Of a stretch of DNA of 64,000 nucleotides, positions 12,153 to 27,893 are shown piece by piece; within the stretch, counting starts at the first letter, position 1, and the number at the start of each line of letters is the position of its first letter. The stretch is from positions 81,806 to 145,805 of the forward strand of contig CAZKJM010000001.1 in the NCBI GenBank assembly GCA_964553245.1, read 5' to 3'. The position numbers and the translations under genes were made by a program. The DNA comes from an uncultured Gammaproteobacteria bacterium (GTDB lineage: Bacteria; Patescibacteriota; Microgenomatia; Levybacterales; UBA12049). Below the pieces are notes generated by a model. It was not told the origin of the DNA. It did no database searches and was given only the letters and a program-made list of their open reading frames with translations.

Positions 12153-13618
12153 GGCTTTTCTTTTAAATTAAACAATGCGAAATCCGAGGTTGCTTTTATA
12201 ATTTTATATTCTTTTCCAATTTCTAAATCTTTTTCTGTTGGACTAATGATTGCCAAGTAATCTGCTCCCAGTAAAGACATTTGAGAAAGGGAATTTTGAA
12301 AACTTGCCCAACCTTTTCTTTTTGTCTGATAAAGAAAAGATGTATCTCCATTGTAATTTGCGATTATTTTTGCATCTTTTGGAATTAATTTATCAATTTC
12401 TTCTCCTGCAATAACTATTGAACGATTATTAATATTAAAAAAATCTCTTACAATATACCAACTAAAGAAAAATGTAAACAAAACTATAAGCGCAAATATT
12501 AAATAAGAAATAATTTTGTTTGTTAAATTTTTATTATTTAACAAGAACGAGCTACCTACTCCAAGATAAACAGCAATACTTGGAATTATTAAAATTTGGT
12601 AATAATCATGTTGAACATTTCCTCTTGCTATTACAAATAAATATAATAATGACGACAACGAAAACGAAAATAAAAATAATAAATCATTTTTCTTTTGCCT
12701 TGCGATAAACCCCAATATGAAAAGTCCAATTCCCCAAAATCCTAAAATTAATTTTCCAATTCTTTCTGCAAATATCCAGTAAAAAAAGGATCCTTTAAAT
12801 CGTATATTCCCTCCGTTAAAAAGCCAGTCGCTTGCAGGAATACCTTCTGGGTATTGACTAATCCAAAATCTCCATAAAATAAGCGGAATAATAGAAATAA
12901 CTGCGTAAAGCCATAAATTCCATTTTTTAAGAAAGCTTAAACCAAATTTTTCGTAAGAAAGATATATTAATGGCAGCGTAAAAAATAAGGCATATGGTTT
13001 AACCAAAAAAGCTAAAGTTGTAAATAATAAGCTTAAGATGAACTGATGATTAAAGATTGATAACCTAAGGTCTTTATTAAGCCATTTATCAAAAAAATAA
13101 ATTCCCCCAAGATTTAAGGTAACCATCAATGGATCAGGAAGGATTGTTCTTGAGTAATAAATATTGAATGGCAAAAATAAAAAGAAAAAATACGTCAATA
13201 ATCCAGTCAAGAATCCAAATCTTTTTCTAATAATAAGAAAAAGAAAAAGCCCTGAAAAAACTGAACCAAAAATATTGATCAGTCTTCCCCACTCTTCCAA
13301 GCTTAAAAAATTAAACAAAATAAATCCACCTGCTTGAAGCGCATTAAAAACCGGAAATTCCACAAATCTATATCCTTGAGGATTATTTATTCCTGATGGC
13401 ACATTCGACAAATCGTCAAACCGCGGATGTAAGAAATCAAAACCGTTATTGACAAAATTTCTTGAAACAGATGATGTATCCGCTTGTCTCCATGAATGCC
13501 AATCTGCAATTGGGTTATTAAATCCATAAAATCTTACTAAAAAACCAAGGATGAACAAAATAACCACGGAAATAATTTTATTTTTATTATTTTTGAGCAT
13601 TTTTCTTAACTTCCGCAT
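12149..13618 (-). CDS. polytopic membrane glycosyltransferase, GT-C fold, PMT/ArnT-like variant
   Basis: 489 aa with about 10-12 predicted TM helices. The first extracytoplasmic loop carries an acidic motif (ADWHSWRQADTSSVSRNF...EFPVFNAL) resembling the DE/HPPL region of the GT39/GT83 families. Confidence 0.55.
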   Translation of the reverse strand: MRKLRKMLKNNKNKIISVVILFILGFLVRFYGFNNPIADWHSWRQADTSSVSRNFVNNGFDFLHPRFDDLSNVPSGINNPQGYRFVEFPVFNALQAGGFILFNFLSLEEWGRLINIFGSVFSGLFLFLIIRKRFGFLTGLLTYFFFLFLPFNIYYSRTILPDPLMVTLNLGGIYFFDKWLNKDLRLSIFNHQFILSLLFTTLAFLVKPYALFFTLPLIYLSYEKFGLSFLKKWNLWLYAVISIIPLILWRFWISQYPEGIPASDWLFNGGNIRFKGSFFYWIFAERIGKLILGFWGIGLFILGFIARQKKNDLLFLFSFSLSSLLYLFVIARGNVQHDYYQILIIPSIAVYLGVGSSFLLNNKNLTNKIISYLIFALIVLFTFFFSWYIVRDFFNINNRSIVIAGEEIDKLIPKDAKIIANYNGDTSFLYQTKRKGWASFQNSLSQMSLLGADYLAIISPTEKDLEIGKEYKIIKATSDFALFNLKEKP

Positions 13619-16600
13619 CTAAGATTACTTGATAGTCTGTTACGCTTCCATCGCTATTAAATATTAAAATCTTTTTATCCAAAGACATCTCTGTACTTCT
13701 TAATGCTATATTTAAATCAAGATATTTATTGATTTTTATATTGTCGTTTTTAAAAGACAACCAAACTGCATCCTCTATTCCTACCGGAAAAACCCAAGCA
13801 TCACCGTATTTAATCGGAACATCAACAAAGTTCAACTCAACGGGACCTTTCGCCCACTCGTTTTTATATATTGAATCTATAGAAATAAAAAATTTCTTGC
13901 ACTTATCTCCCGCTCCTAACCAATCAAAGGATGTTTGCCGTAAGCTAATGATGTGGAAAAGAGAATATGTACTAATTAATATAAAAATTGAAAAAACTGC
14001 TATTTGTCTACCGTTAACTAATAAGAATTCAAAAAACTTCTTAACCAAAAGAACAAGAATAAAGATTATTCCAATTGATGCAAGATAACTGTATCTTGAA
14101 GTAATATTTCCAAGACCTATAAAGGGGAGAAGCGAAACCACAAAAAATATAAAACTGAATAAAATAATTCCTTTTTCGTTCCTTTCAAATGCTCGTAAAA
14201 TATTTTTATATACGATGTATAAAATAAATACCACAATTAATATTATTAATGTCGAAGCCAAAATATTTTCTCTTGCATTTATTCTTATTGACTCATAAAT
14301 AGGCAGAGCTATCGGACCCAATAATGTAATAAAAATATAACCGAAAATATTTCCAATAAAGTTAAGAGGTAGTTTTACAAGATTATAGTTATAATCCCCA
14401 TTTAACCAGTGACTGTTTGATAAATATCTTGCGATTAAATAGATAGCTACCGGAATAAAAAAACTTAAAAAGTCCTTTCTTCTAAGAAATGTTTTTATAT
14501 TTGTAATCGAATTATCCTTAAATTTATAAGCTAAGACAAGAAGCGGTAACGCAACTCCTAATTCGTGAAACAACAAGGACATTGCAAAAGAAATAAAAGA
14601 CAGAATAAAAAGATAAAATTTTCGTTTCTCGTCCCAATTAATAAATAATATTAAACCCAGTAATCCAAAAAATGCATTGAACAGGTGTCCTGTCGGAGCA
14701 ATCCAATAGACCATTTCTAGTGATCCGCTCATTGTTAAGAATAATACTGACGCAAAAAATGCTAATAATTTTCTATTAAATACTTTTCTTCCTAAAATAA
14801 AAACTAAGACCGAAATTGCAAAATGCAGAAAAATGGAAACCGAATGATAGACAACTTGATTCAGCCAAAAAATGTTATACATAAAATAAAAGTAAACTTT
14901 TGTTCCTGGTCTATAAAAAAAACCGTCAGACGAGGTAAAAAAACCTAATATTCCATTTTTTGCATCAGCCGCCCATCTAAGCCATGTAAAATCATCGCCT
15001 GTAAAAAAGCTCTCTATGCTTGAAGAAAACAAAAAGAAGGCAATAAAAAATAAATATATCGCAATTGCCCAAGTTGACGTGGCAATCTTTTTTAACTCAG
15101 GCAACAGACTTATTGATTTTTTTTGATAAAGAACAAGCGTTGCAAAAGCTAACCCCATTAAAATCCATAATACAAAAGCAATCTTTGAAGCTTCAAACAC
15201 ATCAATTAACGTTGCATTTAAAGCAAGACCTATCACTCCTGCAACAAAACCCAAAATAAAACTTTTTGCAATTTTCGAGTCAATATCCGGCCAAATTTTT
15301 TTTACATAAACTCCAAAAGATAAAAATATCGCTAAAAAGGAAATAAGACCCAAAAGCCCTACTTCCCCAAGTAATCTAAGATAATTATTGTCAACTGCAA
15401 GACTTACCGAACCATAACCGCTACCTAATAATATGTTTCTATTAAACGCATCAAGAGCCCTTGGCCATTCTCCCTGAAACCTCGTTGTAAAAGACATATC
15501 GTAAGCAGCTGCTCTTTTAACTATAAAATCGCCGTGTAAAACTAAATGATCTGCGCCAATTTTTTCTTTGGCATTTGGAGGAAACTCATAAAAAAAACTA
15601 TCTAATCTATTAACTACTGGTGATAATAATAGATTAATATAACCTGTTCCTTGGGGTAGATTTTCTCCGGTTGAGATGTTTGTTGCAACAACTAATGGTA
15701 CCTTTTCTGGAATATATTTATGGTCTAAAATCGCAGTTGGAGAAGCAAGGGGATCATTTTTATCTCCAGTTAATGCCCTATTTAATTCTTCTTTATCTTT
15801 AACATTTTTTTGTAGTACTATTTTATTTTTAAAGTATTCTTGGTTAACAAATTTAACGTGGCCAACCGACTCTCCTGTTTTTGCATCAACTAACACGTCT
15901 ACTTCTTTAACTGTGCTTTTAAAACGATCAAAAAGAGATGTTTGAAAACTAAGTATTAATATTGAAGAAACTAAAATTATCGGAATCGAGATCAATACAA
16001 GTTTTTTCTTTTGAAAGAAAAGGACTATAAATAACGAAACCAGTAAAACAAAAAAAGAAACTCTCGATACAGTCATAAATAAAAGAATAAATCCAAAAAT
16101 CGAAGTAACTAAAAGAACAAATTTTAAAAGTAGGTTTTTAATTCCGAAAAATAAACTAACAATAATTGGAATTATTAACACCAAATAAGCTGCCAAATCA
16201 TAATGCCCCGCAAAAGTTGACGGAACTCTTGATAATTGAGATAACTGGATTGGAGTACCTTTGGCAAACTCTTCATTCATTGTTAAATAAGCCGGAAAAC
16301 CAAGATATTTTTGACCAAAGCCATATCCAATTACTGCAATAAGTGAGATAACAAGAGCGGCAACTATAAAAGGAAGGTATTTTTTATTTTTCATTCCCTG
16401 AAAAGCAATAAAAAATAAGCTCATGTATTCTATATGTCTTAAGAGGCTCAAGAATGCCACGTTTGGAAAAACATTCGCAATTTTAGGAAAAATCAATAAT
16501 ATTCCATGAAGCGTTGCAACTATTCCAATAGACCAAAAAATAAAAATCGGCATTGTCAAGGGCGTTTTTAAATTGATTTTTTTTAAGAATAAAAGGGCAA

Positions 16601-16769
16601 CCCAAAACAAAAGAACAAATAAAACAATAAAATCTTCAAGTCTTACATATACCCATGTATTTCTAATATCAACCATTGGTATTTTAGGATAAAGCGGAAT
16701 AAATGCTAGTAAAAAAAGTGATATTAAAAATAAAATATTATTCTTAATAAAAGCAATTAATTTATTCAT
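13587..16769 (-). CDS. 1060-aa fusion membrane protein: N-terminal O-antigen-ligase/polymerase-like (Wzy_C-type) domain plus C-terminal GT-C-like polytopic domain
   Basis: The N-half has many TM helices, a large extracytoplasmic loop of about 190 aa, and a GSGYGSVSLAVDNNYLRLLGEVGLLGL block that matches the WaaL/Wzy_C signature (GxGxG...HNxYLxxLxExGxxG; here D replaces H). The C-half (from ...FFTGDDFTWLRWAAD...) resembles the first-loop region of the GT-C-like paralogs at 58275..60572 and 60569..62203. Confidence 0.6.
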   Translation of the reverse strand: MNKLIAFIKNNILFLISLFLLAFIPLYPKIPMVDIRNTWVYVRLEDFIVLFVLLFWVALLFLKKINLKTPLTMPIFIFWSIGIVATLHGILLIFPKIANVFPNVAFLSLLRHIEYMSLFFIAFQGMKNKKYLPFIVAALVISLIAVIGYGFGQKYLGFPAYLTMNEEFAKGTPIQLSQLSRVPSTFAGHYDLAAYLVLIIPIIVSLFFGIKNLLLKFVLLVTSIFGFILLFMTVSRVSFFVLLVSLFIVLFFQKKKLVLISIPIILVSSILILSFQTSLFDRFKSTVKEVDVLVDAKTGESVGHVKFVNQEYFKNKIVLQKNVKDKEELNRALTGDKNDPLASPTAILDHKYIPEKVPLVVATNISTGENLPQGTGYINLLLSPVVNRLDSFFYEFPPNAKEKIGADHLVLHGDFIVKRAAAYDMSFTTRFQGEWPRALDAFNRNILLGSGYGSVSLAVDNNYLRLLGEVGLLGLISFLAIFLSFGVYVKKIWPDIDSKIAKSFILGFVAGVIGLALNATLIDVFEASKIAFVLWILMGLAFATLVLYQKKSISLLPELKKIATSTWAIAIYLFFIAFFLFSSSIESFFTGDDFTWLRWAADAKNGILGFFTSSDGFFYRPGTKVYFYFMYNIFWLNQVVYHSVSIFLHFAISVLVFILGRKVFNRKLLAFFASVLFLTMSGSLEMVYWIAPTGHLFNAFFGLLGLILFINWDEKRKFYLFILSFISFAMSLLFHELGVALPLLVLAYKFKDNSITNIKTFLRRKDFLSFFIPVAIYLIARYLSNSHWLNGDYNYNLVKLPLNFIGNIFGYIFITLLGPIALPIYESIRINARENILASTLIILIVVFILYIVYKNILRAFERNEKGIILFSFIFFVVSLLPFIGLGNITSRYSYLASIGIIFILVLLVKKFFEFLLVNGRQIAVFSIFILISTYSLFHIISLRQTSFDWLGAGDKCKKFFISIDSIYKNEWAKGPVELNFVDVPIKYGDAWVFPVGIEDAVWLSFKNDNIKINKYLDLNIALRSTEMSLDKKILIFNSDGSVTDYQVILDAEVKKNAQK

Positions 16770-18215: not shown

Positions 18216-19313
18216 CTATTTTTTATTTACCAATTCTTCCAGTGCTTTTAAAGTCTCTCTTGCTGTTTTTTCCCATGAAAATTTTTTAACCTGCTCATAA
18301 CCTTTTTTAATCATTTGTGCTCTTAGTTTCTCATTTTTTAAAACCTGATTAATTTTTGTTGTAATGTCGGAAACATTTTCTGGATCAATATAAACGGCAG
18401 CATCTCCACCTGCTTCGGGAAGAGAGGAAATATTGCTGGTAATTACAGGGCAACCGTATTTCATTGCCTCAAGTACAGGAAGACCAAATCCTTCATACAA
18501 AGATGGTAAAACAAAACATTTTGCATTTTTATAAAGTGACGGTAAATCTTCATTAGTTACAAAATCTAGAAACTTAACCCTATCCCTAACCTTATATTTA
18601 TCAGGAGCCGCTAATATTTCTTCATATAGCCAGCCTTTCTTACCAACAATAACTAAATCAACTTTTTTATCTTCAATTTTTGAGAATGCCTCAATTAGTC
18701 TCGAAGTATTTTTTCTTGGCTGAAGAGTCCCAACGAATAATAAGTACTGTTTATCTATTCCAAATTTCTTTAAGTCTGTATTTTTCATATCTTTTAACTG
18801 CTTAATGCCTGGGTAGGTCACAACTATCTTTTTTGAATCCACTTTATATTCTCTAATTATATCACTCTTGCTGGACTTGCTAATTGTAAAGATTAACTTT
18901 GCATTTACTGCAGAATATCTAGTCCAATTTATTAATTGATATAAATCATTTTTTTTAAATAAATCTGGAAAATGAATATAGGAAAGATCCATTATGGAAA
19001 TTGCTGTTGATGTAGGTGAGTATCTTGGGGCATAATGAGACGGTGTAAAAAAAACATCAGTTTTCTCTTTTTCAAACATTAATCTAAAAGGGAGAGCAAT
19101 TTGAGTCCACATTTTTTTAGGTCCAATTACTTTGTATTTCCAATTGCTAGACTCATTTGGCATATCTGAAAGAGGATTATCTTTTAGGTAAATTCTAAAA
19201 TCTAAATTCTGAGTCTTGAATTCATTGAGTTGCTTAAGCAACTCATATGCGTACTCACCTATTCCAACTCTATTTTTTACATTGGCTTCATTACCATCAA
19301 TTCCTATTATCAT
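18216..19313 (-). CDS. glycosyltransferase family 4 (GT-B)
   Basis: EGFGLPVLEAMKYGCPVITSN motif. 365 aa. Complete N- and C-domains. Confidence 0.8.
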   Translation of the reverse strand: MIIGIDGNEANVKNRVGIGEYAYELLKQLNEFKTQNLDFRIYLKDNPLSDMPNESSNWKYKVIGPKKMWTQIALPFRLMFEKEKTDVFFTPSHYAPRYSPTSTAISIMDLSYIHFPDLFKKNDLYQLINWTRYSAVNAKLIFTISKSSKSDIIREYKVDSKKIVVTYPGIKQLKDMKNTDLKKFGIDKQYLLFVGTLQPRKNTSRLIEAFSKIEDKKVDLVIVGKKGWLYEEILAAPDKYKVRDRVKFLDFVTNEDLPSLYKNAKCFVLPSLYEGFGLPVLEAMKYGCPVITSNISSLPEAGGDAAVYIDPENVSDITTKINQVLKNEKLRAQMIKKGYEQVKKFSWEKTARETLKALEELVNKK

Positions 19314-21164: not shown

Positions 21165-22118
21165 TTAATCCGTACTATATTTTAGTATATACGAAGAAGA
21201 ATCTACTTGATCGTTTTTCTGATTTAAGTGAAGTAAAAGATCTGCTAAAAATCCAGTAAAAAACACCTGAATACCAGCCAATACTAAAAGAATTCCAAAT
21301 AAAAGAAGTGGTCTGTTACCAATTGATTCACCTTGAAATCTAAGTATGCTTAAGTAGGCTAAGATTATTGAGCCTATTCCAAATAAAATTGATCCAAAAA
21401 TTCCAAAAAAATGCATTGGTTTTTTGCTGTATTTGTGAAGAAATATCATTGTAAACATATCTGGAAGGTCTTTAACAACCTTAGATATACCATATTTAGA
21501 CTTTCCATATCTTCTTTCTTCATGCTTAGTTGGTATTTCTGTTACTTTAAAACCTTGCGCAAAACTAAGCAAAGGAATAAAACGATGCATCCCGCCATAA
21601 AGATTTAAGCTTTTTGCTGCCTCTTTTTTATAAGCTTTTAATCCGCAGTTATAATCATGAAGTTTAACTCCCCAAATCGTAGAAGCAAGAAGATTAAAAA
21701 CTCTCGAGAAAAAAACCTTACCAAGCGAGTCTTTTCTATTTTTTCTCCAACCGGATACAACATCGTATCCTTCATCGAGCTTATTAAGAAGAGCTTTAAT
21801 CTCATCAGGTTTATCTTGTAGATCAGCATCAAGAGTGACCATAAAATCGCCTTTTGCTTTCTGAAAACCAATGGTTAAAACCTCAGCTTTACCCTGATTT
21901 TTCCTTAAAGAAAAAATCCTAACATTCTTATTCTTCTTTTCAAAATCCTTTAAAATCTCTAACGAGCCATCATTTGATCCGTCATCAACGAAAACTACCT
22001 CATAAGATTTGTTAATCTTGGAAAGATTTTTAATAAGCTCATCATAAAAATACTGAAGGCTTTCTTTTTCGTTAAAAACCGGCACAACTATACTCAACAT
22101 ATAGTTGTATTCTACCAT
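21165..22118 (-). CDS. polyprenyl-phosphate glycosyltransferase, GT2 (GtrB/DPM1/ArnC-like) with two C-terminal TM helices
   Basis: MLSIVVPVFNEKESLQYF...YEVVFVDDGSNDGS followed by the DAD region. 317 aa. The C-terminal hydrophobic hairpin is typical of GtrB-type Und-P-sugar synthases. Confidence 0.8.
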   Translation of the reverse strand: MVEYNYMLSIVVPVFNEKESLQYFYDELIKNLSKINKSYEVVFVDDGSNDGSLEILKDFEKKNKNVRIFSLRKNQGKAEVLTIGFQKAKGDFMVTLDADLQDKPDEIKALLNKLDEGYDVVSGWRKNRKDSLGKVFFSRVFNLLASTIWGVKLHDYNCGLKAYKKEAAKSLNLYGGMHRFIPLLSFAQGFKVTEIPTKHEERRYGKSKYGISKVVKDLPDMFTMIFLHKYSKKPMHFFGIFGSILFGIGSIILAYLSILRFQGESIGNRPLLLFGILLVLAGIQVFFTGFLADLLLHLNQKNDQVDSSSYILKYSTD

Positions 22119-24154
22119 TTTTTGGTTACATAACCAAACCCAAGGAAGAATAAAATTGAGGCTAAGGTTATTCCACTTAGAATTAAGCCTGTATCTACGT
22201 ATTTTTGCGGTTCATAATATACTGTTGCAGAGTAAGTCCCATCCTTATTGAGCTTAAAACTGTTAAATAACTTATACTTATCAGACATTATTTTTGAATC
22301 ACCAGCTATAAAACTCCAGTTCTTGTCAAAGCTTTCTGAAAAAATTAAATATGTATTTTTTTGAACATTTTCTAAGCTAACCTCATATTTAACTGGACTT
22401 ACATATTCATATTCAACATTACCCTGCCCAACTAGCCAAAAATGATCTTTTGGATCACTAACTTCAAAAACTTTTATTTTCCCAAAGCCTTCAGCGGGTC
22501 TTAACCAAGCTATCTTATTAATCTCATTTACTGTCTTTAAATATTCAACCTCGCTATATACCCTATCTTCTAAAAATATTTCTCCCTCAGAATCATATGG
22601 AACAATAACATACTTAACTGCTGATTCTCGTAAAAGGTTTTCTGTTTCTTTTTTGTCTAGACTCATAAATAAAGCAGAACTACTTGAGGTATTAAAAAGT
22701 TGAGAAGAGGAAATACTTGGATGTCTATTTGTTCCCATTGCAAATCGTTGTGTTGTTGGAACCCAAAAAGTTCTAAAAAATTGATCTTTTGACGAAATAA
22801 AATTATTTAATTTATCATATTCCAACGGAATACTACCCGGTTTAAAAGTTCCTGTCAGTTGACCAAGAATTGCAGGACAAATAAGAAACATTAAATAAAA
22901 GATAACAAGTAGTAAGAATAAATTTGGTAGGATTTTTTTATTTTTAAGTTGTAATTTTGAATTTTGAATTTTGAATTTTGAATTTATGAACACATATATT
23001 TTCGATACAGAGAATGGAATTAACATCGAATAAGATAAAACAATCAAGGCATAAAACTTCGTCGGGTCTCTAAACATCTGCATACCGGGAAGATGATTAA
23101 ATAGCCATAAATATATATTTCCAAACGGCTCATTTGATCCCTTTGCCAAAAATGCTCCAAATAGTCCCAATACTAAAAAATAGATAATATAAAGTTTTTC
23201 TTTTGAACTTTTTAATCCTTTAATAAAAAATAAGCTTAAATAAGCTAATATTGGTAAAATCAAGAATTCCGGCTTTAAAAAATATACTTTTCCAAAAATA
23301 TTTTCCGGCCAATTCGGATGAAGAAGAGAAAAAGAATTCTCAAATTTTGCAAAACTAAAAAACATTACGCCTTGAGAAGTGCTATACGCACTACCCATCT
23401 GCTCTATTGGATTTTGCCCAACAAGTAAAATTGGCAGAATCCAGTAAGAATTTAAAAGCAAAACAATAAATAAAGATAAAATAAACAATATTAAAGTATT
23501 GAAAAATACTTTCTTGTTTACATTTAATAAATTAAAAAGTAATAGAAGCAAAAATATAGAACATATTGCAACATATCCGATTCTTAAATCAAGCATTATC
23601 TGGATAGTTAAAATTAATCCTATTATTAATGTTTTTCTAAATAATTCATAAAAAGATATTTTTACAAAATTGTCTTTGGCAAAAATATTAATAAAAGAAT
23701 ATAAAGTTATTGGAATAAGTGCTATGGATAATGCAATAAATATTTGTCCGCCTCCAACAAGCATTAAAACATAGGAATTAAATAAAAATATTAAAGGGGT
23801 TAAAAAATAAAAATTATTATTTTTAAATAATCTCTTAAAAAGAAAACTTGAGGAAATTATTGAAAGTACAATAAAAGAATAAAAAAATGCAATTTTTTGA
23901 ATTAATTCTAAATTTATTTTTAAAAGATTACCTAAGAATAAAGGAAAACCAATAATAAAATTTAACCATCCATAAGCGTACATTGGTCCTCCCAATCCAC
24001 TTAAACCATTTCCCCAAGCGAATGCATTTAAAGTTGGGTTACTTACTGACAATGTAAAATCTCCCGAATTAACAGCGTTTCCTATAAACCAATTTCTAAA
24101 AACCGTTATTGTTAAAACAAAAAACAAGACTAGGGGAAAATTTTTTAATTTCAT
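22112..24154 (-). CDS. polytopic membrane protein, GT-C/YfhO-like architecture (about 14 TM helices, then a C-terminal soluble domain and a terminal TM anchor)
   Basis: 680 aa. The start overlaps the GtrB-like gene by 7 nt. The ORF contains a heptanucleotide tandem repeat. Confidence 0.5.
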   Translation of the reverse strand: MKLKNFPLVLFFVLTITVFRNWFIGNAVNSGDFTLSVSNPTLNAFAWGNGLSGLGGPMYAYGWLNFIIGFPLFLGNLLKINLELIQKIAFFYSFIVLSIISSSFLFKRLFKNNNFYFLTPLIFLFNSYVLMLVGGGQIFIALSIALIPITLYSFINIFAKDNFVKISFYELFRKTLIIGLILTIQIMLDLRIGYVAICSIFLLLLLFNLLNVNKKVFFNTLILFILSLFIVLLLNSYWILPILLVGQNPIEQMGSAYSTSQGVMFFSFAKFENSFSLLHPNWPENIFGKVYFLKPEFLILPILAYLSLFFIKGLKSSKEKLYIIYFLVLGLFGAFLAKGSNEPFGNIYLWLFNHLPGMQMFRDPTKFYALIVLSYSMLIPFSVSKIYVFINSKFKIQNSKLQLKNKKILPNLFLLLVIFYLMFLICPAILGQLTGTFKPGSIPLEYDKLNNFISSKDQFFRTFWVPTTQRFAMGTNRHPSISSSQLFNTSSSSALFMSLDKKETENLLRESAVKYVIVPYDSEGEIFLEDRVYSEVEYLKTVNEINKIAWLRPAEGFGKIKVFEVSDPKDHFWLVGQGNVEYEYVSPVKYEVSLENVQKNTYLIFSESFDKNWSFIAGDSKIMSDKYKLFNSFKLNKDGTYSATVYYEPQKYVDTGLILSGITLASILFFLGFGYVTKKW
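22953..22987. repeat. heptanucleotide tandem repeat: four perfect AATTTTG units (22953-22980) plus one imperfect unit (AATTTAT, 22981-22987) inside the coding sequence of 22112..24154
   Basis: Read directly: gtAATTTTGAATTTTGAATTTTGAATTTTGaatttatgaa. On the minus strand it encodes ...NSKFKIQNSKLQ.... The unit length is not a multiple of 3. Confidence 0.85.
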
Positions 24155-24474
24155 TTTTTATAAAATCTATCTTTAAATAAAAGATAAAAATATTTAGCTA
24201 ATGACAAAACGAGAAACCCATAAACAAAAGACATATAATGATTTGCTTCGACGGGAGAATTTAAAAGAAAGCTTACTATGCTTATACAAAAAAATATTAA
24301 AGCACAAATTTCAAAACTGAATCTTAATAAAACTAATATTATACAAAAAGTATAAATTACAAAATAATTTATATCGAATATCTGTCTTAATATAAAATAA
24401 TACAAAATAAAAAAAGGCCATTGCAAAAATCTATTGCTTTTTTTATCAAAATATTTTAACCACAACTTTTTCAT
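24151..24474 (-). CDS. small 3-4 TM membrane protein, possible GtrA-like flippase component
   Basis: 107 aa. It sits between two GT-C-like genes and downstream of the GtrB-like gene. The basic C-terminal tail ...AKYFYLLFKDRFYKK resembles GtrA-family C-termini only loosely. Confidence 0.3.
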   Translation of the reverse strand: MKKLWLKYFDKKSNRFLQWPFFILYYFILRQIFDINYFVIYTFCIILVLLRFSFEICALIFFCISIVSFLLNSPVEANHYMSFVYGFLVLSLAKYFYLLFKDRFYKK

Positions 24475-27400
24475 TTTTTATTAAGTCTTATATACAAAAT
24501 TAATGTTAAAATGAATACTGCTACTAAGATAAAAGCATTTCTTATCGTCTTTTTATACCCGATATATTCAATAATTATCGTGTCCGTTGGAGAATCTATG
24601 TACCATGCATTCGAGTATGAACTAGAAAAATGGTAATAATTTTTTTTATTATCATCTATTGGATAAGCAATCCAATCTTTATTATACGTTTGATTAAAAG
24701 CTAAAAATCCAGAAAAATTTTTTGACATTTTTAATTCATATTTCATTGGACTGTTTTTTCTTACATCTAAAATTCTTCCTGTTGTTTGTTTTTTGGAAGT
24801 TTCTAGCAAACAGTAAAGCCTTACATCGTCATTGCCTACTTCAGGAGAAATTATAAAATCATTATAAATACTAGGATTATTAGAATTCGTATCTAAATTA
24901 ATCACATAAAAATAATACACTGGGTGATCAAAATTATTCACATTAAATTCCTTCGAAAAAGCTTGTTGCTTATTGCTCTTTTTGAGTATCGTTCCAAAAA
25001 CAATAGAATTTTTATCGTGTACTCCATCTCTTATTTCATTTAAATCTAATTTTCCCTTGGACAATAACAAAACATATGTTCCTTCAGATTCTTCATTAAG
25101 AGTAAAACCAATATGATAGCTTCCATTTTTTAGCAAACCAGCTTTTATCTCATTTATACCTCCTACATTTTCCTGCAGACTATCTAACTCTAAGATATTT
25201 TTTACATTATATTTAATCTCTGCTTGAAAGCTTCCTTTTGAAAGAGTAATGTAACCCGGAAGAGATAACTCGTTATTGTTAATAGTAACTTTATTAATAT
25301 TTAAATTACTATTTCTTGCCTCAGCGAAACACCTATAATCTCCTGTATGTGATATATCAAGCCTCATTCTGTAAACTTTTTCAATATAATCTGTCTCCCA
25401 AATATTGTTTTTAATATCATTAATTGACTTTTCTATGTATGATAAAAGATAAAGTATTTGCGTATTCAGCTCATTATCTCTTAGGGGATTGATTTTTGTA
25501 GGATTAAAATTTCCACCGGTAACAAAGTTTATCAATTTTTCCTGCTGTGGGATTAGAAAATTAATTACTTCAATACTTTTGTTGTTTTTTGTAAAAAAAT
25601 CTGAATTTAACGAATTTAAATTATTTATCGTGTCTCTAAAAGATAAAATATATTTTGACGCCTGGTCCTTAACTTCGCCTGTTGTACCATTATCTATTTT
25701 TTTAAATAAATTCAAAAATTCATTCTGGGTATGAATTAACGAATAACTAATTTTATCTTCATCGGTTAATATTACTGGATTTGTCTTTCCGATAATTGTT
25801 TTTATTACCGTTTTAATTTTCTTTATGAAGCTATCGTCATCTACTTGAGGTAATTTTGCATTAATCTTAATGCAGCCTACGCAATTGGCAACAGAAGAAT
25901 AATCACTAATTTTTTCACTAAATTGCTTTAGTAAAGTATTTTCACTTACAATGATGTATCCCTCAACTGCGCCTATTTGTCTTGATAAAATCTCAAATTC
26001 CTCCCCTGAATTTAGTTGTAAATTAGTATATACCAGCCTTGAAGGCGTTGAAAAACCATAGTTAAAATCTTTAATTGTATTTAACTTAAATAACTTAAAA
26101 TATGTATTTTCATAAATCTTATTAAATTCTTCATCTTTTTCAAGCCCAAAAGCTATTTTTTCCGGATCAATATCATTTAAGTTTAAATAATTTGTGTAGT
26201 AAAAAGGCACATTATCTTTTTTTACTAAAACTAAACCTATTTGGTTTTGGACTAGAAAATTTTTAAAATCTTGCAAGTTATCTTTTTGAAGCATCAAATA
26301 TGGAGACATATTAAAAGAATCAGGTTTGTTTTGAATAAATTGTGTATTTAAAAAACTGCAATTTATCAACCTGTTTAAAATTTCCTGTCCAACATAGGAG
26401 TAACCCGTTTTTTCCCATACTGCGTTTGAGATAATTGATGTTTTCGGAATAACAAGAGTTGTCGTACGTTGACATTCCTTTTCTAAATTGAGTTTTAAAT
26501 CATAATATTCAACTGGAATTTGAGTTTTTGAACTAAAAACATAGTCTTTATTACCGTAAGTGAAATTAACTTTTTTAACATTGTCGTAAGAAAAAATAAA
26601 AAATGGTCCCGTTATTATCGCGGTAACACACAGCACAAGAAAAAATGTAGCAAATATTGTCTTTTTCATTTTGTAGCGAATAAGATAATCCAGTAGTAGC
26701 ATTAAACCAACACCTGTTAAAACAAAGTAACTGAAAAAGTAAAAAAGTCCTGCTTTTTGATACGCATCTCTAAACGCTCCAAAAAATGGAATATAATCAA
26801 ATGCAAATCTTAATATCCAAGACAATGGAGGATTCCCGGCTTTCATAATAAATATGAACATCAGAAGTAAAAATAAAAAATATATTAAAATATTTTTATT
26901 CTTTATATTTTTTAGCCTAAGCATCAAAAAAACAATCAAAAAGGGAAGAAGGAAAATCGGTAAAGTGAAAACAGAACCGCTGACATAAAATTCATTCCAG
27001 CTAAATGCATTATTTATCATCATCGGACTACCCAAGATCCTTAAAATATTTAACAAGGTGCTCCCTTGGGCATTAACGTCAAGATATATAGAGGTTCCCA
27101 AGCTAGCCTGGGATTCATACTGCTTAGCCAAAATTGAGATTATTGGAGAAAACCACCACGAGTTAATTAAAACGACTAATAAAAAGAATAAACAAATATT
27201 TAATGTTTTCCTACTGATTAATTTTGTATTAGAAGTAAAAAAATAAAAGAATAGGTATATAAAGATGATTATTAAATATTGAGCAAGATAGATATATGAA
27301 ATAAATCCTGGGATTAAAAATAATTCACTCAAAAAAAATGCGAATAACCAAAATGACCTTTTATGCTGATTATTTTTGTCTAATGGAAAAAGCTTAATAA

Positions 27401-27893
27401 GACATAAAAAATTAAATGGAAGCATGCTGTAAATATAAATTTGGGGATTAAACATAAAATAAGCATAATAAAAAGTGTAAAGATTTAAAGAATAAATAAT
27501 TGAAAATGAAATGATGCCGAGTGAAATATATTTATTCTTATTAATTTTTAGATAACTGGCAAGATAGCTCAAGAATAAATAATAGCTAATAATAGATAAC
27601 ATTATGAAAGAAATATATAGAAGAAATTGCGCAGTTGACAAGCTTGAAAATAACTCCGCAAATAAGGATGTTGGCAAAACATAAGGAATCCAAGCCCAGC
27701 CAAAACCAAAATCACCAGGAAAAATATTGCTATCCCATGTATCAAGAAAATGTAAAGAATGCGTTAAATCAAAAGAAAGAAGACTATCCCAATAATAAAT
27801 GATTGTACCTCCCTCAAACCATTTATGTACTGCCATTACCGCAATAAAAAAACTAAATATAATTAAAACAACTGCCTTCAGGATTTTGCTCAT
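24471..27893 (-). CDS. 1140-aa giant membrane glycosyltransferase-like protein (N-terminal GT-C-like polytopic domain, about 680-aa extracytoplasmic domain, C-terminal TM anchor; AftD-like architecture)
   Basis: About 12 N-terminal TM helices with an acidic first loop (YYWDSLLSFDLTHSLHFLDTWDSNIFPGDFGFGW). A long hydrophilic region rich in N/Y/T follows, and the final segment is a TM helix, ...AFILVAVFILTLILYIRLNKK. Confidence 0.5.
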   Translation of the reverse strand: MSKILKAVVLIIFSFFIAVMAVHKWFEGGTIIYYWDSLLSFDLTHSLHFLDTWDSNIFPGDFGFGWAWIPYVLPTSLFAELFSSLSTAQFLLYISFIMLSIISYYLFLSYLASYLKINKNKYISLGIISFSIIYSLNLYTFYYAYFMFNPQIYIYSMLPFNFLCLIKLFPLDKNNQHKRSFWLFAFFLSELFLIPGFISYIYLAQYLIIIFIYLFFYFFTSNTKLISRKTLNICLFFLLVVLINSWWFSPIISILAKQYESQASLGTSIYLDVNAQGSTLLNILRILGSPMMINNAFSWNEFYVSGSVFTLPIFLLPFLIVFLMLRLKNIKNKNILIYFLFLLLMFIFIMKAGNPPLSWILRFAFDYIPFFGAFRDAYQKAGLFYFFSYFVLTGVGLMLLLDYLIRYKMKKTIFATFFLVLCVTAIITGPFFIFSYDNVKKVNFTYGNKDYVFSSKTQIPVEYYDLKLNLEKECQRTTTLVIPKTSIISNAVWEKTGYSYVGQEILNRLINCSFLNTQFIQNKPDSFNMSPYLMLQKDNLQDFKNFLVQNQIGLVLVKKDNVPFYYTNYLNLNDIDPEKIAFGLEKDEEFNKIYENTYFKLFKLNTIKDFNYGFSTPSRLVYTNLQLNSGEEFEILSRQIGAVEGYIIVSENTLLKQFSEKISDYSSVANCVGCIKINAKLPQVDDDSFIKKIKTVIKTIIGKTNPVILTDEDKISYSLIHTQNEFLNLFKKIDNGTTGEVKDQASKYILSFRDTINNLNSLNSDFFTKNNKSIEVINFLIPQQEKLINFVTGGNFNPTKINPLRDNELNTQILYLLSYIEKSINDIKNNIWETDYIEKVYRMRLDISHTGDYRCFAEARNSNLNINKVTINNNELSLPGYITLSKGSFQAEIKYNVKNILELDSLQENVGGINEIKAGLLKNGSYHIGFTLNEESEGTYVLLLSKGKLDLNEIRDGVHDKNSIVFGTILKKSNKQQAFSKEFNVNNFDHPVYYFYVINLDTNSNNPSIYNDFIISPEVGNDDVRLYCLLETSKKQTTGRILDVRKNSPMKYELKMSKNFSGFLAFNQTYNKDWIAYPIDDNKKNYYHFSSSYSNAWYIDSPTDTIIIEYIGYKKTIRNAFILVAVFILTLILYIRLNKK

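What the first reader, a model, noticed from the sequence alone, without database searches (positions are those of the whole stretch)
22953..22987. Heptanucleotide (AATTTTG)x4+1 tandem repeat inside a GT-C glycosyltransferase gene - candidate slipped-strand phase-variation switch
Four perfect and one imperfect 7-nt units lie within the reading frame of 22112..24154, about 390 codons into the minus-strand gene. Because 7 is not divisible by 3, gain or loss of one unit frameshifts the C-terminal roughly 290 aa, which carries the soluble domain and anchor. Heptanucleotide coding repeats are a known ON/OFF mechanism for surface-glycan genes in Helicobacter, Neisseria and Mycoplasma. I saw no other multi-copy heptamer in the window, so this is not simply AT-rich background.
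Basis: seen in the sequence. Interest (0 to 1): 0.6.

Follow-up and report, generated by a model that had tools for sequence, protein, structure and literature searches.

The report
In-frame heptamer repeat in glycosyltransferase linker
A real 7-base tandem repeat sits in frame in a short internal loop of a membrane glycosyltransferase gene of a Levybacteria-like (Patescibacteria) genome; it belongs to a recurrent class of slippage-made heptamer tracts that also occur in essential genes, and nothing found supports its use as an on/off switch.

Summary
Window 22953-22985 is a perfect (AATTTTG)x4.7 tract, (CAAAATT)n on the coding minus strand. It is far beyond chance and is the strongest tandem repeat in the window. 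It lies in frame at codons about 390-401 of the 680-aa ORF 22112..24154.

A predicted structure shows the GT-C fold. The tract encodes the short lysine-rich hairpin between two transmembrane helices. Other family members are split into two translationally coupled genes at exactly this point.

Of 80 species-level orthologs, 24 show 7-nt periodicity at this loop, with different units, and all 80 are in frame. Similar perfect tracts of 3.0-5.0 copies sit in other loops of the same gene and in neighbouring genes. No repeats of period 6 or 9 were found.

A metagenome scan found the same tract type in frame in LeuRS, MetRS, SecA, TsaD, FolD and MurG.

No frameshifted allele was seen. The apparently truncated homologs are natural split genes.

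Best reading: a slippage-born heptanucleotide microsatellite tolerated in a permissive linker, acting as a mutational hotspot. A true phase switch is not excluded, because no read data were available, but comparative data do not support it.

The parts
22953..22985 (-). Perfect heptanucleotide tract, (CAAAATT)x4.7 on the coding strand. It encodes SKFKIQNSKL(Q) in the TM11-TM12 loop.
22940..22990 (-). Extended, partly degenerate periodic zone (TRF period 21 = 3 x 7). It covers the whole linker ...NSKFKIQNSKLQLKNKK...
22112..24154 (-). Host gene of 680 aa, a GT-C fold membrane glycosyltransferase (AftD/STT3/ArnT-like; some homologs hit YfhO PF09586 or PF10131). It has no Pfam hit of its own.
22986..24154 (-). 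N-terminal module (about aa 1-390), the GT-C transmembrane catalytic core with conserved D32. It corresponds to the separate 389-411 aa N-part gene in split homologs.
22112..22939 (-). C-terminal module (about aa 406-680): one transmembrane helix, a beta-rich soluble domain and a C-terminal transmembrane anchor. It corresponds to the separate 272-285 aa C-part gene (starting MKKYI...) in split homologs.
21165..22118 (-). Downstream GT2 glycosyltransferase (PF00535) with C-terminal transmembrane helices, overlapping the GT-C gene by 7 nt. It is the likely polyprenyl-phosphate-sugar synthase partner (inferred).
   Evidence: conserved neighbour
24151..24474 (-). Upstream small membrane protein of 107 aa, overlapping the GT-C start by 4 nt. 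A 99-119 aa ORF holds the same position in related loci.
19189..19210 (-). Decayed heptamer tract (GAATTTA-like, about 3 copies) at aa 35-42 of GT4 gene 18216..19313. The ortholog in L048 has a perfect (AAACTCA)x4.4 at the same position.

Best explanation
The tract is a slippage-generated heptanucleotide microsatellite fixed in frame in a permissive linker. That linker is the short, lysine-rich loop between the 11th and 12th transmembrane helices of a GT-C glycosyltransferase, inferred to be cytoplasmic. The loop is also the joint between the catalytic membrane core and the C-terminal module (one helix, a soluble domain and an anchor), which other family members encode as two translationally coupled genes.

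Today the tract simply encodes about 11 linker residues. Replication slippage can change it in 7-nt steps. A change of 1 or 2 units gives a 398-425 aa core-only product. A change of 3 units adds or removes 7 residues.

In nature the out-of-frame alleles appear to be removed by selection. The tract therefore behaves as a mutational hotspot or liability, one instance of a general heptamer-specific repeat phenomenon, and not as a tuned on/off switch.

Shown: the repeat, its frame, its position in the predicted structure, its recurrence in orthologs and in other genes, the split-gene architecture, and the absence of frameshifted alleles in assemblies. Inferred: origin by slippage, the cytoplasmic side of the loop, and purifying selection against slipped alleles.
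For: - The repeat is real and non-random.
- The AlphaFold2 model has mean pLDDT 84.5. The tract peptide sits between helices 364-393 and 400-424. Every PDB hit with E <= 0.05 is a GT-C enzyme.
- All 80 GTDB species loci are in frame across the loop, and 24 of them show 7-nt periodicity there. Twelve have near-perfect tracts, with units such as AAATTTC, AAGTTCA, ATTTTCA, AAAATCA, AAAGTCA and AAGTATC.
- Perfect tandem repeats of 3 or more copies in 710 kb of these loci: period 7 gives 29, of which 9 lie in the loop (0.74% of the bases). Period 5 gives 1, period 6 gives 0, period 8 gives 3, and periods 9-12 give 0.
- The other tracts lie in other loops of the same gene (query aa about 160, 312, 577, 618) and at conserved positions of neighbouring GT4 genes and a small ORF. 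Every one that lies inside an ORF is in frame, at 3.0-5.0 copies.
- All units are free of stop codons in all three frames, which accounts for the CAA...TT consensus (inference from the sequences).
- Natural split genes break exactly at this loop, with an ATGA overlap and a Shine-Dalgarno sequence.
They carried (CAAWWTT) runs of 24 nt or more, in frame in LeuRS, MetRS, SecA, Mfd, TsaD, FolD, MurG and others. In-gene tracts were 24-37 nt.
- One ortholog protein, which carries an imperfect tract, is encoded on 24 contigs read, and the tract DNA is identical in all 10 that were fetched.
- Heptamers are the known over-represented long repeat class in prokaryotes, with a proposed polymerase-footprint slippage mechanism (PMC4692102, PMC4679880).
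Against: - No reads or same-species genomes exist for the window organism in the collections. Its protein is a singleton cluster and the nearest relative is 61% identical. Low-frequency slipped alleles therefore cannot be excluded.
- Consensus assemblies hide minority variants.
- Perfect tracts in many lineages imply ongoing or recent slippage.
- In Levybacteria loci the tracts are about 10 times denser in this GT-C gene than in its neighbours. Several other hosts are glycan genes (GT4, GT9, Wzy_C, PMT_2). That distribution is what a contingency-locus set would look like.
- It is unexplained how a tract of more than 4 copies arises in an essential gene without passing through out-of-frame intermediates.
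Confidence: 0.6

Rival explanations
1. This is a true contingency locus. Slipped-strand mispairing of the heptamer tract switches the GT-C enzyme reversibly between full length (ON) and a truncated core (OFF), diversifying surface glycosylation in the population.
For: - The unit length is not a multiple of 3, and a change of 1 or 2 units truncates the protein at 398-425 aa.
- The host is a surface-glycan type enzyme paired with a GT2 gene.
- Tracts persist, perfect, at the same loop in many species, and are enriched in this gene family and in other glycosyltransferases.
- The same unit, (AATTTTG)14, lies inside the H. influenzae hmw1A ORF with a frameshift (PMC2651432).
Against: - No out-of-frame allele was seen in 80 orthologous loci. 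Among the homologs that carry a tract-like loop (42 with a clear 7-residue period and 52 weaker, cluster members included), none is cut off at the tract.
- There are only 4.7 copies, against 13-38 in characterised heptamer switches (PMC2651432).
- The position is mid-gene, whereas tuned switches favour the 5' end (PMC3315296 abstract).
- The same tracts occur in essential genes.
- In-gene tracts are capped near 5 copies, while longer ones are seen only in short, probably non-coding ORFs.
Confidence: 0.2
2. The tract is an evolutionary fusion/fission hinge. A 3n+1 insertion such as one 7-nt unit, placed upstream of an ATGA stop/start overlap, fuses the N-part and C-part genes. The tract would be the scar and continuing engine of switching between one-gene and two-gene architectures. 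A slipped allele would then give a core enzyme without its C-module, altering function instead of abolishing it.
For: - Split genes break exactly at this loop with an ATGA overlap.
- The 19 split forms are scattered among fused forms in a rough neighbour-joining tree.
- Split N-parts end ...QKFK*, while fused loops begin ...SKFK. Split C-parts start MKKYIP, while fused forms read (I)QNYLP or NKKILP.
- A tract also sits at the Sua5-TsaE domain joint in L105.
Against: - The split junctions examined carry no heptamer tract.
- The window gene has no start codon or Shine-Dalgarno sequence for a C-part after the tract.
- Tracts also occur in loops that are not domain joints.
- The tree is crude.
Confidence: 0.12
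3. The tract is a functional nucleic-acid motif, such as a binding array for a DNA- or RNA-binding protein or an internal regulatory element, conserved as DNA and not as protein.
For: The periodic DNA is conserved at the site while the peptide differs between lineages. Cold-shock proteins have been reported to bind heptamer direct repeats (discussed in PMC4679880).
Against: - Unit sequences differ widely between orthologs: CAAAATT, CAAAGTT, CAAGTAT, GATTACG, GTTCGCA and others.
- The only shared features are AT-richness and absence of stop codons.
- The tracts occur in unrelated genes and in contigs with G+C from 0.22 to 0.68.
Confidence: 0.03
4. The tract is an assembly or sequencing artefact.
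For: One odd contig (L081) joins the C-part to unrelated DNA at a heptamer remnant. This may be a chimera formed at the low-complexity k-mer.
Against: The 33-nt tract is shorter than a sequencing read. It preserves the reading frame of a conserved 680-aa protein. Equivalent tracts appear in many independent assemblies from different projects.
Confidence: 0.01

Closest known systems
Heptanucleotide long simple sequence repeats of prokaryotic genomes (Mrazek et al. 2007, as cited in PMC4692102 and PMC4679880; cyanobacterial tandem heptamers; Xanthomonas GGGAATC; Beggiatoaceae TAACTGA)
   Same: Short perfect tandem arrays of a 7-nt unit with a few copies. Period 7 is specifically over-represented relative to periods 5, 6, 8 and 9. 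Arrays recur at the same genomic position in relatives with length and sequence variation. The proposed origin is polymerase slippage.
   Different: The described cases are mainly intergenic and often G-rich. Here the tracts are AT-rich, stop-free in all three frames, translated in frame in protein loops, and capped at about 5 copies.
SSR-mediated phase-variable (contingency) genes, e.g. H. influenzae hmw1A with (AATTTTG)14 inside the ORF and 7-bp repeats in the hmw promoters (PMC2651432, PMC8262952); from memory, Neisseria pglE heptanucleotide repeats
   Same: The unit sequence is identical to the hmw1A intragenic repeat. The unit is not a multiple of 3 and lies inside a surface-structure gene, and slippage would frameshift it.
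   Different: There are 4.7 copies against 13-38. No length polymorphism or OFF allele was found in any ortholog. The organism is an environmental Patescibacteria lineage. The same tract type is found in essential genes.
Three-component extracytoplasmic glycosylation systems pairing a GT2 polyprenyl-phosphate glycosyltransferase with a GT-C enzyme (GtrB/GtrC, CsbB/YfhO, ArnC/ArnT; from memory); Salmonella gtr operons are phase variable through Dam/OxyR (PMC2909390)
   Same: A GT2 gene lies immediately next to the GT-C gene, with small membrane-protein genes alongside. Some homologs hit the YfhO family.
   Different: Neither the sugar nor the acceptor is known. The gtr switching mechanism is epigenetic and acts at the promoter, not through a coding repeat.
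In-frame selfish or repeat insertions in coding genes (Rickettsia palindromic elements; from memory)
   Same: Short repetitive DNA is tolerated in frame in surface loops or linkers of otherwise conserved genes, including essential ones. The same GT-C loop also hosts small GC-rich palindromic in-frame insertions in some orthologs.
   Different: Rickettsia palindromic elements are mobile palindromes of 100-150 bp. Here the inserted DNA is a tandem heptamer array of 24-37 nt made in place.

Membership tests
GT-C fold glycosyltransferase | Fold similarity of the multi-helix membrane domain to solved GT-C enzymes | tested here: met
   The AlphaFold2 model has mean pLDDT 84.5. Foldseek PDB hits 1-23 are all GT-C enzymes: AftD at E 9e-8, STT3/PglB/AglB at 1e-5 to 1e-4, then DPY19, ArnT and ALG3.
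GT-C fold glycosyltransferase | Conserved acidic residue in the first extracytoplasmic loop | tested here: met
   D32 (motif SGD) is invariant in 25 sequences and at least 90% conserved in 97. It lies between helix 1 and helix 2 of the model.
GT-C fold glycosyltransferase | Match to a curated GT-C sequence family | tested here: inconclusive
   The window protein has no Pfam hit. A few homologs carry PF10131, PF20176 or PF09586 (YfhO), and one is named GT39 by NCBI.
GT-C fold glycosyltransferase | Use of a polyprenyl-phosphate-linked sugar donor | not testable with these tools
   Only context is available: an adjacent GT2 gene with C-terminal transmembrane helices.
SSR-driven phase-variable (contingency) locus | Tandem repeat with a unit not divisible by 3, placed so that unit gain or loss shifts the frame | tested here: met
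SSR-driven phase-variable (contingency) locus | Repeat-number polymorphism, including out-of-frame alleles, among strains or within populations | tested here: not met
   All 80 orthologous loci are in frame. No tract-truncated ORF appears among the 120 best N-domain hits. One ortholog with an imperfect tract is on 24 contigs, and the 10 fetched are identical at the tract. For the window organism itself this cannot be tested, because it has no reads and no close relatives.
SSR-driven phase-variable (contingency) locus | Tract long enough for a high slippage rate | tested here: inconclusive
   There are 4.7 copies. Characterised heptamer switches have 13-38 copies (PMC2651432). A survey threshold of more than 2 units was used there only for detection. 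The slippage rate in this lineage is unknown.
SSR-driven phase-variable (contingency) locus | Host gene is dispensable and surface-related; tracts are absent from essential genes | tested here: inconclusive
   The host is a glycan-type enzyme. However, the same tract class occurs in LeuRS, MetRS, SecA, TsaD, FolD and MurG.
Prokaryotic heptanucleotide long SSR class | Perfect tandem heptamer of 3 or more copies, with period 7 over-represented relative to neighbouring periods | tested here: met
   (29 tracts of period 7 against 0-3 for periods 5, 6 and 8-12 in 710 kb), and the literature.

The most novel reading that the evidence does not exclude
Levybacteria, and perhaps other Patescibacteria, maintain heptanucleotide tracts at fixed loop positions of a surface GT-C glycosyltransferase and partner glycan genes as true low-copy contingency loci. 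At this particular joint, slippage would toggle the enzyme between a fused form and a core-only (split-like) form. That would change the surface glycan, not simply switch it off. It would be the first phase-variation system described in the candidate phyla radiation.
Probability: 0.12. Interest if true: 0.75.

Novelty: new member of a known kind. Interest (0 to 1): 0.4.

Why it matters
The tract as found is a well-documented example of a translated heptamer microsatellite. It shows that such tracts recur at the same permissive loops across a whole Patescibacteria lineage, that they are confined to stop-free units and about 5 copies or fewer inside genes, and that they also invade essential genes.

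This warns against calling phase variation from a non-triplet coding repeat alone. It also marks the loop as the fusion/fission joint of a widespread but unannotated GT-C family.

If read data later showed 7-nt length heterogeneity, this would be the first contingency locus reported in the candidate phyla radiation. These organisms are thought to depend on surface interactions with hosts.

Tried and rejected
1. Truncated homologs of 380-427 aa looked like OFF alleles. The DNA showed natural split genes with ATGA overlap, not slipped tracts.
2. P0141, a 547-aa variant on 7 contigs, looked like an N-terminal disruption. It is a gene-calling difference caused by a TTG start.
3. The upstream ORF called as either 62 or 112 aa on contigs carrying P0121 looked like a polymorphism. 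The DNA is identical in all 8 contigs aligned.
4. Cluster members at 90% identity or more were checked for copy-number variants. None differed by whole units. Instead the loops differ by divergent or mosaic segments.
5. I first took the tract lengths as quantised in 21-nt steps (24-33 nt, then 49-58 nt). This was weakened when the longer tracts turned out to lie in short, probably non-coding ORFs.
6. I first read the shared CAAnnnT unit as concerted evolution of one ancestral tract. It is explained more simply by AT-richness plus the need to avoid stop codons in all three frames.
7. None of the 120 metagenome tract hits was a GT-C ortholog, so that scan gave no population data for this gene.
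8. The window itself shows no general excess of period 7 at low copy number.
9. Literature searches found no paper linking Patescibacteria with phase variation.
10. The contig L081, which joins the C-part to unrelated DNA at a heptamer remnant, could not be resolved as either a chimera or a rearrangement.
Full report
**1. The observation**

Window 22953-22987 reads AATTTTG x4 followed by AATTTAT. The perfect period-7 run is 22953-22985, 33 nt or 4.7 copies. TRF scores it 67, the top tandem repeat among 81 rows for the window, and also sees a 21-nt (3 x 7) periodicity over 22940-22990.

The run of 26 self-matching bases compares with a mean of 11.3 and a maximum of 17 in 200 dinucleotide-preserving shuffles, taken over all periods from 4 to 12. 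The window has 29% G+C.

The tract lies in ORF 22112..24154 on the minus strand (680 aa). On the coding strand it is (CAAAATT)n starting at codon 392, and it encodes ...INSKFKIQNSKLQLKNKK....

**2. The host gene**

The protein has no Pfam hit, but it has 964 homologs. Those that carry a source name are mostly from Levybacteria or other Patescibacteria. The nearest homolog is 61% identical, and the exact protein is a singleton on a 561,761-bp contig.

An AlphaFold2 model built from 97 sequences has mean pLDDT 84.5. Foldseek hits 1-23 against the PDB are all GT-C glycosyltransferases: AftD, STT3/PglB/AglB, DPY19, ArnT and ALG3. D32 in the first external loop is conserved. A few homologs hit YfhO or PF10131.

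The gene sits in a glycan cluster:
- a GT2 gene immediately downstream;
- further GT2 and GT4 genes, a hexapeptide-repeat transferase, sugar epimerases and dehydratases, and a UDP-GlcNAc 2-epimerase.

In the model the tract peptide is the short loop between helices 364-393 and 400-424. After it come a beta-rich soluble domain (about 430-648) and a C-terminal helix (650-677). The soluble domain must lie outside the cell and the loop is lysine-rich, so I infer that the loop is cytoplasmic.

**3. Orthologs**

Eighty loci were fetched from species-representative genomes. I anchored on the conserved segments either side of the loop, and all 80 are in the same frame across it.

The DNA between the anchors shows 7-nt periodicity in 24 of the 80 loci. 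Twelve have near-perfect tracts, but with different units:

| Locus | Unit | Copies |
|---|---|---|
| L010 | AAATTTC | 4.4 |
| L043 | AAATTTC | 4.9 |
| L017 | AAGTTCA | 4.7 |
| L018 | ATTTTCA | 4.3 |
| L020 | AATTTTC | 4.6 |
| L021 | AAAATCA | 4.9 |
| L047 | AAAGTCA | 4.0 |
| L052 | AAGTATC | 3.9 |
| L077 | AATTCAA | 3.6 |

. More distant orthologs have short loops without a tract.

The encoded peptides differ between lineages (SKFKIQN, KFQISNF, FSIFNFQ, KSKIKNQ, VSSIKYQ). What recurs is therefore the periodic DNA, not a peptide motif.

**4. A general, heptamer-specific phenomenon**

I counted perfect tandem repeats of 3 or more copies in the 710 kb of these loci:

| Period | Count |
|---|---|
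| 5 | 1 |
| 6 | 0 |
| 7 | 29 (9 in the loop, which is 0.74% of the bases) |
| 8 | 3 |
| 9-12 | 0 |

The other period-7 tracts fall in these places:
- other loops of the same GT-C gene, at query aa about 156-168, 312, 577 and 617-620;
- GT4-like neighbours;
- one position of a 178-190 aa ORF, shared by three species.

Every tract that lies inside an ORF is in frame, and all have 3.0-5.0 copies.

The window's own GT4 gene (18216..19313) has a decayed tract exactly where the L048 ortholog has a perfect one.

All units lack stop codons in all three frames. In AT-rich DNA that requirement essentially forces the C-A-A...T-T pattern. This is my inference from the sequences.

The literature already reports heptamers as the most over-represented long simple sequence repeat in prokaryotes. 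The proposed explanation is slippage linked to the polymerase footprint (PMC4692102 and PMC4679880, both citing Mrazek 2007).

**5. Search for OFF alleles**

A search with the N-terminal 390 aa listed 120 best hits. About 22 of them are only 380-427 aa long, several on long contigs. After removing partial ORFs, 19 of these stop at the loop and were classed as split genes. I first took them for frameshifted alleles.

Their C-termini are conserved (...LK(R/K)xF(K/V)*). The DNA shows a natural two-gene architecture in four lineages (L095, L096-098, L099-101, L226):
- the N-part stop overlaps the start of a 272-285 aa C-part (starting MK(K/R)...) in an ATGA;
- a Shine-Dalgarno sequence lies upstream of that start.

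In a fifth lineage (L225, P0166) the N-part stop is followed by REP-like hairpins.

The split point is exactly the tract loop. The 19 split forms are scattered among fused forms in a rough tree. No ORF truncated by a slipped tract was found.

One ortholog protein, which carries an imperfect tract, is encoded on 24 contigs read. The tract DNA is identical in all 10 that were fetched.

Close relatives at 90% protein identity or more differ at the loop by divergent or mosaic segments, not by whole units.

**6. Metagenome scan**

Contig G+C ranged from 0.22 to 0.68. None is an ortholog of this gene.

Pfam identifies the host ORFs as follows:
- housekeeping genes: LeuRS, MetRS, SecA, Mfd (twice), a UvrD-like helicase, TsaD, a Sua5-TsaE fusion (tract at the domain joint), FolD, MurG, hydantoinase;
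- glycan genes: a GT9 heptosyltransferase, an O-antigen ligase, a PMT_2 GT-C with two tracts, an epimerase.

Tracts inside confirmed long genes are 24-37 nt. Tracts of 39-82 nt occur only in short, probably non-coding ORFs.

Essential genes cannot be on/off switched. The class as a whole is therefore not a set of phase switches, and selection seems to cap tract length inside genes.

**7. Consequences in the window gene**

| Change in units | Product |
|---|---|
| +/-1 or +/-2 | stops at 398-425 aa, a core-only protein about the size of a split N-part |
| +/-3 | 673 or 687 aa |

No start codon with a Shine-Dalgarno sequence is available for a separate C-part.

**8. Interpretation**

*Best supported reading (0.6).* The tract is a slippage-born heptamer microsatellite tolerated in a permissive linker that is also the family's fusion/fission joint. 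It is a mutational hotspot whose out-of-frame products are purged.

*True phase variation (0.2).* This remains possible for four reasons:
- perfect tracts imply active slippage;
- the tracts are about 10 times denser in this gene than in its neighbours;
- many hosts are glycan genes;
- consensus assemblies hide minority alleles.

Characterised heptamer switches have 13-38 copies. That includes (AATTTTG)14 inside H. influenzae hmw1A, the same unit as here (PMC2651432).

*Fusion/fission hinge (0.12).* This reading is compatible with either of the above.

*Functional DNA or RNA motif (0.03), or artefact (0.01).* Both are unlikely.

**9. Novelty**

Coding heptanucleotide repeats and heptamer over-representation are both known. 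No paper in the library links Patescibacteria to phase variation.

Three things appear new:
- recurrence of the tracts at fixed loops across a Patescibacteria lineage;
- their stop-free, roughly 5-copy-or-fewer, in-frame character, including in essential genes;
- coincidence of this tract with a gene fusion joint.

I rate it a new member of a known kind, of moderate interest. Read-level length heterogeneity is the decisive missing test.

Noticed in passing
window 22112-24154; loci L095, L096-L098, L099-L101, L226: This GT-C family exists in two forms. One is a single fused gene of about 680 aa. The other is two translationally coupled genes: an N-part of 389-411 aa and a C-part of 272-285 aa, with an ATGA overlap and a Shine-Dalgarno sequence. 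They split exactly at the loop that carries the heptamer tract. Nineteen of the homologs examined are split, and they are scattered in a rough tree.
   Followed up: partly
window 19189-19210 (GT4 gene 18216..19313, aa 35-42); L048 6755-6785: The window's GT4 glycosyltransferase gene holds a decayed heptamer tract at the same position where an ortholog in L048 has a perfect (AAACTCA)x4.4.
   Followed up: partly
L017 8712-8737, L042 7940-7970, L069 6052-6084: A small ORF of 178-190 aa near the GT-C gene carries perfect heptamer tracts with three different units (AGTATCC, AATTTTC, CAATTTC). In all three species the tract sits at the same position, after the motif ...FFSSLRR. The function of the ORF is unknown.
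   Followed up: no
L004 vs L222 (loop region); P0135/P0136, P0105, P0087, P0023; L225 2485-2572: The same loop also hosts small GC-rich in-frame insertions in some orthologs. The one read as DNA (L004) is flanked by a 7-bp inverted repeat (TTGCCCC...GGGGCAA). In L225 the N-part stop is followed by REP/MITE-like hairpins. In L004 vs L222 the flanks are nearly 100% identical, while about 250 nt around the loop are only about 55% identical, which looks like a recombined segment.
   Followed up: partly
L081 1-300: This contig joins the C-terminal part of a GT-C ortholog to unrelated upstream DNA right at a heptamer remnant (caatttttaattttcaaaac). It is either an assembly chimera formed at the low-complexity k-mer or a real rearrangement.
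   Followed up: no
L113, L123 (5568-5591 and 5632-5662), L170, L177, L197, L208: AT-rich (CAAWWTT)n tracts occur in contigs of 60-68% G+C, often within the first 20 codons of long ORFs. In L123 two tracts form an oppositely oriented pair about 40 nt apart. Their origin in GC-rich genomes is unexplained.
   Followed up: no
L102 and L114 (LeuRS), L105 (Sua5-TsaE), L152 (FolD), L166 (MurG), L117 (SecA), L221 (MetRS), L184 (TsaD): Heptamer tracts of 24-37 nt are translated in frame inside essential housekeeping genes. In LeuRS the tract sits at the same site in two different contigs. How a tract of more than 4 copies of a non-triplet unit arises without lethal out-of-frame intermediates is unclear.
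   Followed up: partly
window 13587-34017: The tract gene sits in a long minus-strand glycan cluster. The cluster holds three GT2 genes, a GT4 gene with a separate GT4 N-domain ORF, a hexapeptide-repeat transferase, a Polysacc_synt_2 dehydratase, an epimerase and a UDP-GlcNAc 2-epimerase. It also holds two very large membrane proteins without any Pfam hit (1060 aa at 13587..16769 and 1140 aa at 24471..27893).
   Followed up: partly
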